Shown: in pieces, positions 5,294 to 7,971 of the stretch
How positions within the stretch are numbered: position 1 is the first letter of the stretch
How the letters are laid out: each line of letters starts with the position of its first letter
Source: a virus
Lineage: Duplodnaviria; Heunggongvirae; Uroviricota; Caudoviricetes
Direction: 5' to 3' (one strand)
IMG/VR virus record: IMGVR_UViG_3300029846_000275
Length of the DNA stretch: 13,368 bases
The notes under the pieces: model-generated
The model's input: only the letters and a program-made list of their open reading frames with translations
Told to the model about the DNA's origin: nothing
The model's database searches: none
Translations under genes and position numbers: made by a program

Positions 5294-5623
5294 CTATGCC
5301 ACGACCTGTTCAAAATCTGCCGTTATGGTTACCCACAACGCCCCCACGCTTGCCGACCATTTACGACAAACCACCCTGATCGGCTTCCAGTCATAAGGTG
5401 GCGTCCACTGAAATGCGCGGACGCCACCGTGCCGTTCCAGAAAGGCTTTTAAAGATGGGTGTTCACATTTACGAACACGTATAGTCACGCTGTAAATCGA
5501 CAACTGGTTATTCAGTCCCGCCGCACGACGCTGTTCATAACCATCGCCCAGCTTCACTGTCACCACTTTCGGCTCTGATACCACATTCATATCCGGGCGC
5601 ACTTTCCAGTGAAACGTCTCCAT
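5294..5623 (-). CDS. Minor tail protein M (lambda gpM homologue, 109 aa)
   Basis: 109 aa starting METFHWKV..., ending ..FEQVVA; start overlaps the H stop (TAATG at 5623). Confidence 0.9.
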   Translation of the reverse strand: METFHWKVRPDMNVVSEPKVVTVKLGDGYEQRRAAGLNNQLSIYSVTIRVRKCEHPSLKAFLERHGGVRAFQWTPPYDWKPIRVVCRKWSASVGALWVTITADFEQVVA

Positions 5624-7797
5624 TACCGATATGCTCCACTTAACCGACCACCATCACGGGCCTGCTGTTGCATAAAGTCCGCTGCCGCTTTTTTCCCAAG
5701 GTCATAAACCACCTTCAGGGCAGCCGGACCTATCTGCCCGTTCGTGCCATCGTTATTGATCTCGATGTTGTACTGCGGGGCAAACATCGCCATACCTGAA
5801 CCACCAATATCCGCCACAACCCCCAGCTTACCGTCAGCACCACGACGCAGTGGCAGAATGGCTTCAGGTCCAGCTTCCCCCATCACACCCGCGCCTTTTG
5901 CAAAAGCAAAAAACGTCGGACGGTTAACCACCGTGCCACTGTAACGACTCAAATCAGCAGACTGATAAATCCCCCCATTGGCATTCAGGGAAAGGCTGCT
6001 GAGATCAAATCCCAGTACACTGCCAATCCCTTTTATCGATTTCATCATGGTTGCCTGCGCCAGGATTTTCGCCATATCTGACAGCACCGAAGAGGTGAAG
6101 GATTTGAAGTTGAGTTTGCCGGTAGTGACAAAAGTTGCCAGGCCATTTCCCATGTTGCTGAAGGCTGATGAGAACACCTGTTCTGCTGTTCCTGCCGTAT
6201 TGTCTGCATCCACGGTAAAATCCTGAAATGCACGCAGGACTCCGTTTTTCCAGTTACCCTGCACAACTTCAAGCTGTTGCCAGTAACGGCGATTCTCATT
6301 CAGTTGTCGGTTCAGGCTCTCCGTCAGCGCCTGCTCGGCCTTTCTGTAGTCATCCGTGTTATATGTCCCTTTCTGCTCACTATCCCGCCTCAACTGCTCC
6401 AGCTGTTGCTGGTATTTCTGGCGAAGACTCAGTTGTACCTGATATCGCTGCCGCTGCTGATCACCCATACCCACCGTGGCGATATCCAGGTCATGTTGCT
6501 GACGCTGAGCGCGCTCTTCTTCAGCCAGTTGACTGGTCAGCTGAATTGTTTTTTTCTTCAGATCGTTGAGTGCCGTCTGTTTCTGAAGCTCCTGCTGTTT
6601 TACATCCAGCAGCGTCAGTGCCTGAATCAGTTCATCTTTACGGGCCAGCACACTCTTTTCATCTGCCGTCAGTTTTTTCCCGTCCAGATCGCTGATGCGC
6701 TGCTGCAGAGCCAGAAGCTGTTTATGCGCTTCTGTCATCTTTTCAGTGGCAATGCCTGCTGACTGTCTTGCAGCAGCAATCTGTCCTTCCACCTGTGCCT
6801 GTTGCTGACTGTACTGCAGCAATAACCGGGTGGCCTCATCATTACGGGGTTCGCGTGTTTTTTTCTTACCGGATGCCAGGGCTTTCTCGTAACGTTCATT
6901 TTCACGTTGTATCGCCGCATCCCTGACAGCCTGATCGGCGTACTGCATGGCATTAATACGCGCAATTTCACGCTGATGTCGTGCTGCTTCCGTTTCATTC
7001 ATCCGGTTCAGTGCAGCATTTTCAGCATTACGGCGTTTCTGTTGCTCCTGATAATTCCGCTCTGCCTGCTCTTTTGCATCCTGCAAATCCTTCTGGCGTT
7101 TTTTCTCCTGAAGCTCGTTAAGACGCTGCTGATCGTACTCAACCTGAGAAGATGATGCCGTCCAGGGGAGTCTTTTCACCCGCGACACTTTCTCCTGTAA
7201 AGCGGAAATCTGTTCATCCAGCGAGTCTTCACGACCAATATTCATGGCCGCATCCCAGAAACGACTCCATAAATCAGACAGATACTTCAGCGTACTGCCC
7301 AGCGCATTGAGGTTATTATCAATATCCGCAGTACGCCGACCGGTTTCCTCTGCCAGTGCAGACATGGCTATCCGTGCCGCATCACTGGACCGCCCCTGTT
7401 CCCCAAGGACGCGTATCTGTTCAAGCTGAGTGGCAGTAAGAAAATGCAGCTCATTGTCCAGAGCCTTCGCGGCATTTACAGGATCATCCTTCAGCCGCTT
7501 AAACTGATTTATGGTATCGCTGACCGACTGGCCAACCGATCGCTCCATCTGTGCGGCAGCTCTCGCCACCATACGGGATGGATCATGAACAGAGTCTGCT
7601 GCCTCATGCTTCACACTAAACAGGGCTGGCCCGACATGCTGCAGGGCGTAAACGGGGTTCCCCCTGACAGTCGCAGCCACAGGAGTGTTGGCCGCGAGGA
7701 GCCGTTTTTTTACTGTGTCCCGGTGAAGCCCAAAGGCCTCAGCGATTTTAAAAACACTCCAGTAATAAGCATCACCGATCCCGCTCACATTTGACAT
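5623..7797 (-). CDS. Chimeric ORF: Nu1-type terminase small subunit N-terminal HTH (~60 aa) fused in frame to the C-terminal ~650 aa of a lambda H-like tail tape-measure protein
   Basis: N-terminus IAEAFGLHRDTVKKRL...RGNPVYAL resembles the lambda Nu1 DNA-binding domain; from about residue 77 (VARAAAQ...) it aligns to lambda H from ~residue 196, and the C-terminus INNDGTNGQIGPAALK..DGG matches the lambda H C-terminus; GGAG RBS before the ATG at 7797 (the ORF track starts at an upstream ATG, 7827). Confidence 0.75.
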   Translation of the reverse strand: MSNVSGIGDAYYWSVFKIAEAFGLHRDTVKKRLLAANTPVAATVRGNPVYALQHVGPALFSVKHEAADSVHDPSRMVARAAAQMERSVGQSVSDTINQFKRLKDDPVNAAKALDNELHFLTATQLEQIRVLGEQGRSSDAARIAMSALAEETGRRTADIDNNLNALGSTLKYLSDLWSRFWDAAMNIGREDSLDEQISALQEKVSRVKRLPWTASSSQVEYDQQRLNELQEKKRQKDLQDAKEQAERNYQEQQKRRNAENAALNRMNETEAARHQREIARINAMQYADQAVRDAAIQRENERYEKALASGKKKTREPRNDEATRLLLQYSQQQAQVEGQIAAARQSAGIATEKMTEAHKQLLALQQRISDLDGKKLTADEKSVLARKDELIQALTLLDVKQQELQKQTALNDLKKKTIQLTSQLAEEERAQRQQHDLDIATVGMGDQQRQRYQVQLSLRQKYQQQLEQLRRDSEQKGTYNTDDYRKAEQALTESLNRQLNENRRYWQQLEVVQGNWKNGVLRAFQDFTVDADNTAGTAEQVFSSAFSNMGNGLATFVTTGKLNFKSFTSSVLSDMAKILAQATMMKSIKGIGSVLGFDLSSLSLNANGGIYQSADLSRYSGTVVNRPTFFAFAKGAGVMGEAGPEAILPLRRGADGKLGVVADIGGSGMAMFAPQYNIEINNDGTNGQIGPAALKVVYDLGKKAAADFMQQQARDGGRLSGAYR

Positions 7798-7971
7798 AAG
7801 CAACTCCATCTGGCAGGTGAAAATCATGTTTATTTATATATTTCAATTAATTGCAAACTGGTCTAATGACAGGGAGAAAAAAATATTGTACAGGTGAAAA
7901 GAGAAATAACTTTTAATTATCAATAAATTACCAAACATGCTGCCGCCGCCATGGAAATGCAAAAACTAGCC

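What the first reader, a model, noticed from the sequence alone, without database searches (positions are those of the whole stretch)
5623..7827. In-frame Nu1'-'H chimera: small-terminase DNA-binding domain fused to a tape-measure C-terminus
The first ~60 residues look like a Nu1-type small-terminase HTH, and from about residue 77 the protein aligns with lambda H from ~residue 196 to its C-terminus. A single deletion with a junction near 7570-7625 would have removed the rest of nu1, the large terminase, all head genes and tail genes Z to T plus the H N-terminus, yet left an intact 724-aa ORF with a good RBS directly downstream of cos. Whether it is an expressed fusion protein or an inert remnant is open.
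Basis: partly seen in the sequence, partly recalled or inferred. Interest (0 to 1): 0.55.

Follow-up and report, generated by a model that had tools for sequence, protein, structure and literature searches.

The report
Terminase–tape-measure fusion from prophage deletion
A 10.4-kb deletion in a decaying Qin-type lambdoid prophage of E. coli joined the first 76 codons of the small-terminase gene in frame to the last 648 codons of the tail tape-measure gene; this is ordinary prophage decay, but the break lies at one TA dinucleotide that at least eight other independent deletions also use.

Summary
ORF 5623-7797 (minus strand, 724 aa) consists of residues 1-76 of a 175-aa DUF1441-type small terminase (76/76 identical) and residues 373-1021 of a 1021-aa tape-measure protein (648/649 identical). 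Both parent genes are intact and 10.4 kb apart in the same Qin-type prophage of E. coli GPEC1446. The join is a 6-bp microhomology, GTATGG, at window 7569-7574. A lambda-like cos lies 180-196 nt upstream. The N-terminal part is a small terminase by gene position, PHROG match and predicted winged-helix fold. It is not a sequence member of the Nu1/NohA family.

All eleven copies compared (the window plus ten fetched carriers) have zero nucleotide differences in the ORF, so its intactness says nothing about selection. No promoter lies nearby. Only read-through from the repressed early promoter could express it. I read it as a young, probably inert remnant.

Unexpected: nine different deletions end at exactly the same TA in the terminase gene. 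Ten of 14 unique deletion junctions collected automatically in this prophage family contain TA, and further hand-checked joins are TA-to-TA. Chance gives 0.45% per junction. The agent responsible is unknown.

The parts
5623..7797 (-). Fusion ORF, 724 aa (stop codon 5623-5625). An upstream in-frame ATG at 7827 would give 734 aa.
   Evidence: The exact 724-aa protein is on at least 94 contigs in public assemblies.
7575..7797 (-). Part from the small-terminase (DUF1441) gene: codons 1-75. Encodes the complete predicted winged helix-turn-helix plus the linker.
   Evidence: 76/76 identity to the intact 175-aa protein. The AlphaFold2 model of a family member has the winged helix at about residues 7-60, a disordered linker at 63-70, and long helices from 78, in window numbering.
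7569..7574 (-). Deletion junction: GTATGG, present in both parents. The TA is at 7572-7573.
5623..7568 (-). Part from the tape-measure gene: residues 373/374-1021 of the 1021-aa parent, including TMP_4 and Tape_meas_lam_C.
7804..7807 (-). GGAG ribosome-binding site of the original small-terminase gene, six bases before the ATG.
   Evidence: read directly from the sequence
7977..7993 (-). cos-like site (cosN), GGGCGGGAGCGTCGCGG.
   Evidence: 13 of 17 bases match the lambda left end. Phage cdtI and Tritos records begin at this base.
8362..8568 (-). 68-aa ORF conserved upstream of cos in lambdoid phages. Part of it is 88.6% identical in DNA to lambda 47917-48090.
10628..10655 (-). Early pR-like promoter match (TTGACT-16-AATAAT), just upstream of the Cro-like gene. 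It points the same way as the fusion, about 2.8 kb upstream.
   Evidence: consensus match only
5294..5623 (-). Minor tail protein M homologue, intact. Its start overlaps the fusion's stop.
4586..5284 (-). Minor tail protein L homologue, intact.
4466..4467 (-). Second deletion junction (7,146 bp: from the K-like C40 peptidase gene into the tail-fibre gene), also a TA-to-TA join.
4063..4064 (-). Third deletion junction (about 610 bp inside the tail-fibre gene), also a TA-to-TA join.

Best explanation
The ORF is a deletion-born fusion in a decaying Qin-type lambdoid prophage inserted in ydfJ.

Shown:
- One 10,392-bp deletion joined small-terminase codon 75/76 to tape-measure codon 373.
- The join is at a TA dinucleotide, here inside a 6-bp microhomology GTATGG, with no insertion sequence at the junction.
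- That TA is a reused breakpoint. Nine different deletions end there. Every partner site whose parent sequence I could find also carries TA, as do most other deletion junctions in this prophage family.
- All copies compared are identical in DNA.

Inferred:
- The deletion arose by recombination without long homology that needs, or strongly prefers, a shared TA. This would fit a two-base staggered cut-and-rejoin or strand-transfer chemistry, rather than random slippage.
- The in-frame outcome is chance (1 in 3). Several sister deletions at the same TA are out of frame.
- The product is probably an inert or at most poorly expressed remnant. It keeps the cos-binding winged helix but lacks the terminase oligomerisation and TerL-binding part, and it lacks the tape-measure N-terminal 372 residues. 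The genes for the chaperones G/T and the tube protein V are gone.
- The late promoter and antiterminator Q are absent from this window. The only plausible transcription is read-through from the early pR-like promoter, which the DicA-like repressor should keep off.
For: Parentage and junction:
- Protein identities to both parents.
- Junction alignment.
- The intact parent prophage sits at the same chromosomal locus in GPEC1446.
- Deletion size.

Rarity and youth:
- 2 of 5,426 complete genomes carry the junction.
- The junction 28-mer is absent from species-representative genomes and from IMG/VR.
- All ten fetched carriers have 0 differences over the 2,175-nt ORF and 0-16 differences over the aligned flanking stretches.
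- There is one mismatch to GPEC1446 over 3,109 nt.

Reused TA in the terminase gene. The same left end, ...GATCCATCCCGTA, is joined to:
- the tape-measure gene (this window);
- the large-terminase gene (L013);
- the J C-terminus (L014/15);
- the tail-fibre gene (L016, L019, L206-208);
- a head gene (L017/18);
- J (L020);
- the K/L region (L209).
Sources.

Database proteins show breakpoints at residues 75-77 far more densely than on either side.

TA signature:
- 10 of 14 automatically collected unique junctions contain TA, and further manual cases do too.
- Random pairs of sites in the same region give 0.45%.

Context and expression:
- Searches show the window runs DicA-like repressor, Cro-like, YdaT, a 321-aa gene, the 68-aa ORF, cos, then the fusion.
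- There is no promoter match within 540 nt upstream of the start codon. The nearest is a single 9-of-12 match at 8342-8369, and no strong terminator match lies on the coding strand between the pR-like promoter and the ORF.
- NCBI's pipeline annotates the same ORF in strain 14EC033 as a tape-measure pseudogene missing its N-terminus.
Against: - The exact protein occurs on at least 94 contigs (194 index blocks) in at least three genomic contexts that have undergone further deletions, an IS insertion and a relocation next to the trp operon, yet the ORF is intact in all. However, the look-up retrieves only exact copies, so this cannot show selection.
- The fusion keeps a complete DNA-binding domain, a good ribosome-binding site and a co-oriented upstream promoter, so some expression is possible.
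- No enzyme is identified for the TA joins, so the step 'TA-requiring chemistry' is inference from pattern only.
- In unbiased samples the TA breakpoint is rare. None of 63 metagenomic copies is broken there. Of 119 viral copies none carries a deletion there, and one carries an IS insertion 3 nt downstream. 739 of 757 complete genomes are intact across it.
Confidence: 0.82

Rival explanations
1. Domesticated functional fusion. The cos-binding winged helix, tethered to the coiled-coil tape-measure C-terminus, is expressed and acts as a decoy or dominant-negative that interferes with DNA packaging or tail assembly of superinfecting phages sharing this cos or terminase type.
For: - A complete predicted DNA-binding domain is retained up to the linker.
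- The native ribosome-binding site is retained.
- An early promoter points the same way.
- The ORF persists intact through several later rearrangements.
- Deletion-born fusions that gain function have been proposed as a class (PMC12803068).
Against: - There are zero nucleotide differences among the copies compared, so nothing is conserved in the evolutionary sense.
- Sister deletions at the same TA are mostly out of frame or give short tails, so frame retention is not a recurring outcome.
- Carriers are rare: 2 of 5,426 complete genomes.
- The oligomerisation part of the small terminase is missing.
- The promoter should be repressed by the DicA-like repressor.
Confidence: 0.06
2. The deletion was IS-mediated. 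An insertion sequence first landed at the terminase-gene hot spot, then was lost together with flanking DNA through transposase 'sloppy' strand transfer, possibly helped by the IS-excision enhancer. This would leave a fixed end at the former IS boundary, a variable other end, and no IS.
For: - Three IS insertions lie within 8 nt of the TA in other genomes: an IS66-family element 3 nt downstream (L099 = P0003), and IS911-like ends in both orientations 7 nt downstream (P0006, P0010).
- The published model for IEE/IS629 gives exactly the 'fixed end, variable end, IS gone' outcome (bioRxiv 10.1101/2023.06.07.543989).
Against: - None of the observed IS boundaries coincides with the TA.
- No IS with a TA target duplication was found in about 200 related loci.
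- TA-to-TA joins also occur at many sites with no shared end, each of which would need its own lost IS.
Confidence: 0.12
3. Ordinary random microhomology slippage. The shared end and the TA pattern would be sampling artefacts of how the variants were found.
For: - The window junction itself has a conventional 6-bp microhomology.
- The protein search that revealed the other variants used a query ending at residue 76 of the terminase, which could favour that class.
Against: - The ends are identical to the nucleotide in nine different joins, shown at DNA level.
- Variants with breakpoints from residue 77 onwards would score the same as those broken at 76, yet only four were seen: 81, 85, 87 and about 119.
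- The TA enrichment was measured on junctions found by DNA comparison, independent of the protein query, against a simulated null of 0.45%.
Confidence: 0.05
4. The junctions are made by the prophage's own serine recombinase PinQ (window 2618-3208) acting on pseudo-sites that share a two-base core.
For: - A fixed site plus variable partners that share only a dinucleotide is how I recall serine invertases behaving at quasi-sites (Cin of phage P1; from memory).
- pinQ lies in the same remnant wherever the contig reaches that far.
- PinQ is an active invertase (PMC12529663).
Against: - PinQ's demonstrated sites are TTGGTTTGGGAGAAGG-type repeats, with no TA in that 16-base repeat.
- No such motif is found at or near the junctions: a scan for AAACCNNGGTTT gave only chance-level matches, none nearby.
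- The reused sites share no half-site similarity.
Confidence: 0.04

Closest known systems
Deletion-born fusion genes (PMC12803068, 'Novel genes arise from genomic deletions across the bacterial tree of life')
   Same: An ORF created when a deletion joins the 5' part of one gene, with its start signals, in frame to the 3' part of a distant gene. The ancestral split state is recoverable in relatives.
   Different: Here both parents are phage structural or packaging genes in a decaying prophage, there is no evidence of selection, and the event is very young. That paper reports no terminase or tape-measure case.
Cryptic lambdoid prophage remnants of E. coli K-12 (Qin, DLP12, Rac, e14), in which large internal deletions left terminase-gene fragments next to tail-fibre genes (own knowledge)
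   Same: The chromosomal locus and neighbours match Qin: ydfJ', ydfK, pinQ, tfaQ. There is the same kind of loss of the morphogenesis block, with a terminase-gene remnant retained.
   Different: From memory, K-12 Qin carries a Nu1-family small terminase (nohA). This variant carries a DUF1441-type small terminase and a different head module. The deletion end-points are different and produce a long in-frame chimera.
Lambda gpNu1 N-terminal DNA-binding domain and lambda gpH tape-measure protein
   Same: - Same gene order and distances: cos, then the small-terminase start about 190 nt downstream.
- Predicted winged helix-turn-helix of MerR type at the N-terminus.
- The tape-measure part is collinear with gpH residues 205-853, with a conserved C-terminus.
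   Different: No significant sequence similarity to Nu1. Only 24% identity to gpH. The parent tape-measure protein is 1021 aa against 853 for gpH.
Fixed-end deletions produced by IS elements with the IS-excision enhancer (Kusumoto et al. 2011, as summarised in bioRxiv 10.1101/2023.06.07.543989)
   Same: A family of deletions sharing one nucleotide-exact end with variable other ends, short or no homology, and no IS left behind.
   Different: No IS has been found at this exact position. The TA requirement on both partners is not a described feature of that system.

Membership tests
DUF1441 (PF07278) small terminase | Pfam match above the gathering score | tested here: not met
   The fusion scores 32.0 bits against a cut-off of 35.1, because only profile positions 3-64 of 147 remain. 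The intact parent scores 151.8 bits. So the fusion is a fragment of a member, not a member.
DUF1441 (PF07278) small terminase | Gene lies directly downstream of cos and directly upstream of a GpA-type large terminase | tested here: met
   Met in the parent prophage of GPEC1446 and in phage cdtI. In the window only the cos side remains.
Nu1/NohA small terminase (Phage_Nu1) | Sequence similarity to lambda Nu1 or a Phage_Nu1 profile match | tested here: not met
   No Phage_Nu1 hit at E <= 1. BLASTP to lambda Nu1 gives E = 4.6. hhalign gives 2.7% probability. No solved Nu1 chain was found by sequence.
Nu1/NohA small terminase (Phage_Nu1) | N-terminal winged helix-turn-helix of MerR type | tested here: inconclusive
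   The AlphaFold2 model (mean pLDDT 77) shows helix-turn-helix plus a beta wing. The best Foldseek matches are RacA, BldC, MerR-family proteins, Xis and a small-terminase DNA-binding domain (7lwr), but all have E > 0.1.
Lambda-H-type tape-measure protein | C-terminal Tape_meas_lam_C domain and collinearity with gpH | tested here: met
   PF09718 scores 79.4 bits against a cut-off of 23. BLASTP to lambda H residues 205-853 gives E = 1e-37.
Lambda-H-type tape-measure protein | Full length, with the N-terminal region, and encoded after the G/T chaperone genes | tested here: not met
   Residues 1-372 of the parent are missing. The G, T and V genes lie in the deleted segment.
Deletion-born fusion | Both halves found as separate intact genes in relatives, with the intervening DNA absent here | tested here: met
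Deletion-born fusion | Evidence of expression or purifying selection | not testable with these tools
   All copies compared are identical in DNA. No expression data are available.
Serine-invertase (Pin/Gin/Cin/Hin) site-specific recombination product | Recognisable crossover sites at both partners | tested here: not met
   No pix-like motif at the junctions. Published PinQ sites differ.
IS-mediated adjacent deletion | IS at, or demonstrably once at, the fixed end | tested here: inconclusive
   There is no IS at any of the nine junctions. IS66-family and IS911-like insertions lie 3-7 nt away in other genomes. No IS with a TA duplication was seen.

The most novel reading that the evidence does not exclude
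Deletions in the late region of this widespread E. coli prophage family may be made mainly by an undescribed activity that joins two TA dinucleotides. This would be a two-base-core cut-and-rejoin or strand-transfer enzyme, from the host, a prophage or an IS. It would have a small set of preferred sites: the terminase-gene TA used nine times, and a tail-fibre GGG-TA-CC site used four times. The fusion ORF would then be one product of a directed prophage-disabling process rather than of random decay.
Probability: 0.25. Interest if true: 0.7.

Novelty: new member of a known kind. Interest (0 to 1): 0.36.

Why it matters
The fusion ORF itself adds little. It is one more example of how deletions in cryptic prophages create chimeric reading frames, and annotation pipelines disagree on whether to call it a tape-measure protein or a pseudogene.

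What could matter is the way it was made. Bacteria are known to inactivate and whittle down prophages, but the mutational machinery is poorly defined. Here there is a nucleotide-exact, repeatedly used breakpoint inside the small-terminase gene. There is also a TA-to-TA signature at most deletion junctions of a prophage family present in about 14% of complete E. coli genomes (757 of 5,426). Together these give a concrete, experimentally testable handle on that machinery.

Tried and rejected
1. I first assumed the window came from strain 14EC033 and took its annotation (antiterminator Q cut by IS3; lysis and cold-shock genes upstream) as the window's context. One search showed the window departs from that strain at 8771 and is collinear with L003 and L006 instead. 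The early immunity region lies upstream of the fusion, and the expression argument was rewritten.

2. I considered whether cos lies inside the terminase gene, so that terminase cutting explains the fixed end. Rejected: the lambda-like cosN is 422 nt upstream of the TA, and phage records start there.

3. PinQ pseudo-sites: rejected.

4. A hairpin or cruciform at the reused sites: DNA folding z-scores run from -1.1 to +0.6, which is not unusual.

5. A terminal inverted-repeat partner for the retained end, as if it were the end of a mobile element: only one chance-level 3-mismatch match was found.

6. Chi-like motifs next to right-hand partners: noticed by eye, but in the wrong orientation to stop RecBCD coming from the deleted side. 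Not pursued.

7. A GTAC-type restriction site, IS5 (YTAR), integron (GWT), Tn3-res and gyrase consensus were compared by eye with 16-23 sites. None fits.

8. IS30, which makes a 2-bp duplication: its deletions keep an IS copy. Dropped.

9. A metagenome scan for the 20-mer left of the TA gave 65 hits. Two apparent new junctions (L022, L025) turned out to be unrelated sequences sharing the 20-mer by chance.

10. Literature searches for a TA-specific deletion signature in prophages found nothing relevant.

11. A sequence search of solved structures with the intact small terminase gave nothing.
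Full report
**What is in the window**

The finding's coordinates (5623-7827, minus strand) are the longest ORF, 734 aa. The start preceded by GGAG (7804-7807) is the ATG at 7797, giving the 724-aa protein MSNVSG....

- Pfam places a truncated DUF1441 match on residues 15-77 (32.0 bits, cut-off 35.1; profile positions 3-64 of 147).
- From residue 74 onwards Pfam finds the tail end of TMP_2, then TMP_4 and Tape_meas_lam_C.
- PHROGs call residues 10-78 'terminase small subunit' (phrog_141, 1.4e-15) and residues 75-724 'tail length tape measure protein' (phrog_24, 2e-218).

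**Parentage and breakpoint**

DNA searches show that homology to intact tape-measure genes, in thousands of E. coli genomes and in phages such as Ayreon, mEp460 and cdtI, stops at window 7574. Sequence from 7560 upward matches the 5' end of 'DUF1441 family protein' genes in 548 complete genomes.

E. coli GPEC1446 carries, at the same chromosomal site (ydfJ' - ydfK - pinQ - tfaQ ...), a prophage with the full morphogenesis block, in this order:

- DUF1441 gene, GpA-type large terminase, portal, ClpP/capsid fusion, head-tail genes
- Z, U, V, G, T
- a 1021-aa tape-measure protein
- M, L, K, I, J, lom, tail fibre

The fusion's residues 1-76 are 76/76 identical to the 175-aa DUF1441 protein. Residues 76-724 are 648/649 identical to tape-measure residues 373-1021. 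A three-way alignment puts the crossover in GTATGG, present in both parents, at window 7569-7574. The missing segment is 10,392 bp.

**cos and the 'Nu1' label**

GGGCGGGAGCGTCGCGG at 7977-7993 (minus strand) matches the lambda left end at 13 of 17 positions. The records of phages cdtI and Tritos begin at exactly the corresponding base, 196 nt before the small-terminase ATG. The ORF is therefore directly downstream of cos, as claimed.

The N-terminal part is not a Nu1-family sequence:

- no Phage_Nu1 Pfam hit;
- BLASTP to lambda Nu1 gives E = 4.6;
- hhalign gives 2.7% probability;
- no solved relative by sequence.

An AlphaFold2 model of a family member (mean pLDDT 77) shows helix-turn-helix plus a beta wing. 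In window numbering there is then a disordered linker at about residues 63-70 and long helices from about residue 78. Foldseek's best hits are MerR-type winged helices and a small-terminase DNA-binding domain, all with weak E-values.

The junction at 75/76 therefore falls after the DNA-binding domain. The fusion keeps that domain whole and loses the helical part. By analogy with other small terminases (my knowledge), the lost part mediates oligomerisation and large-terminase binding. The tape-measure part aligns with lambda H residues 205-853 (24% identity, E = 1e-37).

**Context in this window (a correction to my own first reading)**

The same fusion is present in strain 14EC033. There NCBI's pipeline annotates it as a tape-measure pseudogene lacking its N-terminus, and the lysis and cold-shock genes and an IS3-disrupted Q gene lie upstream.

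The window, however, departs from that strain at 8771. It is collinear over all 13,368 nt with L003 (GCA_025372325.1) and L006. Upstream of the fusion, all on the minus strand, are:

- the 68-aa ORF (8362-8568);
- a 321-aa gene (8919-9884);
- YdaT (9865-10386);
- a Cro-like gene (10370-10600).

A divergent DicA-like HTH_3 repressor lies at 10678-11085. Q, the late promoter and the lysis genes are absent.

The consensus scan finds no promoter-like site within 540 nt upstream of the start codon. The nearest is a weak 9-of-12 match at 8342-8369. A 10-of-12 match at 10628-10655 sits just upstream of the Cro-like gene, and no convincing terminator lies on the coding strand between it and the ORF. 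By inference, the only likely transcription is read-through from the early promoter when the repressor is lifted.

**How widespread and how old**

- The junction is in 2 of 5,426 complete E. coli genomes.
- It is absent from species-representative genomes and from IMG/VR.
- The exact 724-aa protein is on at least 94 contigs (194 index blocks) in the large assembly collection.
- Those contigs show at least three contexts: with the lysis module; with the further upstream deletion seen in this window; and next to yciEFG and trp.
- The window and all ten fetched carriers have zero nucleotide differences across the 2,175-nt ORF and 0-16 differences over the aligned flanking stretches.
- The tape-measure side, with the M and L genes that follow it, differs from GPEC1446 at one base in 3,109 nt.

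The event is too recent for decay to show, so an intact frame is uninformative about selection.

**The unexpected part: a reused TA**

The protein search with the junction region returned many other truncated or chimeric DUF1441 proteins whose terminase part ends at ...ADSVHDPSR, the same residue. I fetched their contigs. Nine different joins keep the terminase gene up to exactly ...GATCCATCCCGTA and then continue into different sequences:

- the tape-measure gene (this window and L003-L012);
- the large-terminase gene (L013);
- the J C-terminus (L014/15);
- the tail-fibre gene (L016; L019, in a prophage with another lysis module; L206-208);
- a head gene (L017/18);
- J (L020);
- the K/L region (L209).

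Five of these types rest on multiple contigs or on large NCBI assemblies. Four rest on a single short-read contig each. Wherever the partner's parent sequence could be found, it also has TA immediately before the join: CGGTA|TGG, CTATA|CCA, GTCTA|CGG, CGGTA|TTG, CAATA|CAG, GGTTA|TCA.

The two other deletion junctions inside this window are TA-to-TA as well (7,146 bp at 4466/4467; about 610 bp at 4063/4064).

A junction finder run over about 200 related loci gave 14 unique junctions, of which 10 contain TA. Further manual cases agree (L027, L074). Random site pairs in the same region give a TA-containing microhomology in 0.45% of cases.

Several other sites are also reused:

- a tail-fibre site, CGGG-TA-CCTTCTGCC (window 4466), in four different deletions;
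- a CCCGGG-TA-CCGG site, a CCCGT-TA-CC site, and the large-terminase-gene site GTCTA-TA-CC, in two each.

IS elements have inserted 3 nt (IS66 family, L099) and 7 nt (IS911-like ends, both orientations) downstream of the terminase-gene TA in other genomes.

In unbiased samples the breakpoint is nevertheless rare:

- 0 of 63 metagenomic copies of the gene are broken there;
- 0 of 119 viral copies carry a deletion there (one has the IS66-family insertion 3 nt downstream);
- 739 of 757 complete genomes are intact within 80 nt either side.

**What makes the TA joins**

I could not identify the agent.

- PinQ, the serine recombinase in the remnant, acts on TTGGTTTGGGAGAAGG-type repeats (PMC12529663). 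No such motif is at the junctions.
- No IS sits at any junction, and no TA-duplicating IS was seen in related loci. Loss of an IS together with flanking DNA, as described for IS629 with the IS-excision enhancer, would give the 'fixed end, variable end, no IS' picture and remains the best-defined rival.
- The reused sites have no unusual hairpin potential.
- There is no inverted-repeat partner for the retained end.
- cos is 422 nt away.

All nine deletions run downstream from the TA. However, my way of finding them, through proteins that keep the terminase N-terminus, could only see that direction.

**Verdict**

The ORF is a young deletion-born chimera in a decaying Qin-type prophage and most likely an inert remnant. 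A functional role as a cos-binding decoy cannot be excluded but has no support. Deletion-born fusions as a class have been described (PMC12803068).

The feature worth following up is the nucleotide-exact, repeatedly used TA breakpoint and the TA-to-TA signature of deletions in this prophage family.

Noticed in passing
window 7572-7573 (TA inside the junction); related loci L013-L020, L206-L209: Nine different deletions in related prophages end at this same TA of the small-terminase gene. Each partner site whose parent was found also has TA.
   Followed up: yes
window 4466-4467 and 4063-4064: Two further deletion junctions in the same remnant (7,146 bp from the K-like gene into the tail-fibre gene; about 610 bp inside the tail-fibre gene) are also TA-to-TA joins. 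The right-hand site of the first (GGG-TA-CCTTCTGCC) is reused in three other, different deletions (L073, L198, L120).
   Followed up: yes
window 8770/8771: A fourth breakpoint. Here the window departs from strain 14EC033 and from GPEC1446 and continues into the early region (a DUF977 fragment, then the 321-aa gene). Q, the lysis genes and the cold-shock genes are missing. The right-hand parent has AT rather than TA before the join. The left-hand parent was not found.
   Followed up: partly
L099 (IMG/VR) and proteins P0003, P0006, P0010: IS insertions cluster next to the terminase-gene TA: an IS66-family end (GTAAGCG...) 3 nt downstream, and IS911-like ends (TGAAGTGG...) in both orientations 7 nt downstream.
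   Followed up: partly
L007 (ENA ERZ27229524): The identical fusion with its M, L, tail-fibre remnant and tfa genes lies next to yciE/yciF/yciG and the trp operon instead of ydfK/ydfJ. This indicates a rearrangement or a second prophage location.
   Followed up: no
window 2618-3208 (+): An intact pinQ serine recombinase. A 2025 paper (PMC12529663) reports that PinQ inverts the e14 P segment and thereby blocks phage T2 adsorption. The sequence CGTATAGAG just before its start codon resembles the hot spot's CGTATGGAG (8 of 9), probably by chance.
   Followed up: partly
window 1-1284 (-): ydfJ lacks its N-terminus. This marks the prophage/chromosome boundary and is annotated the same way in 14EC033 and GPEC1446.
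   Followed up: no
window 10370-11085: An intact divergent immunity pair: a Cro-like gene (P22_Cro) and a DicA-like HTH_3 repressor, with YdaT downstream. The immunity switch of this remnant looks functional.
   Followed up: no
L027, L063, L077 (metagenome contigs): Three contigs lose homology to the reference prophage at the same position in the large-terminase gene (nt 914 from the small-terminase start). In L027 it is a 20-kb TA-to-TA deletion into the tail-fibre gene. This may be one event sampled three times.
   Followed up: partly
L022, L025 (metagenome contigs): The 20-mer TGTTCATGATCCATCCCGTA also occurs in two unrelated GC-rich contigs. These are chance matches and not terminase genes.
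   Followed up: yes
window 7639: Strain 14EC033 differs from the window at this base (third position of codon 53 of the fusion), whereas all ten fetched carriers are identical to the window.
   Followed up: no
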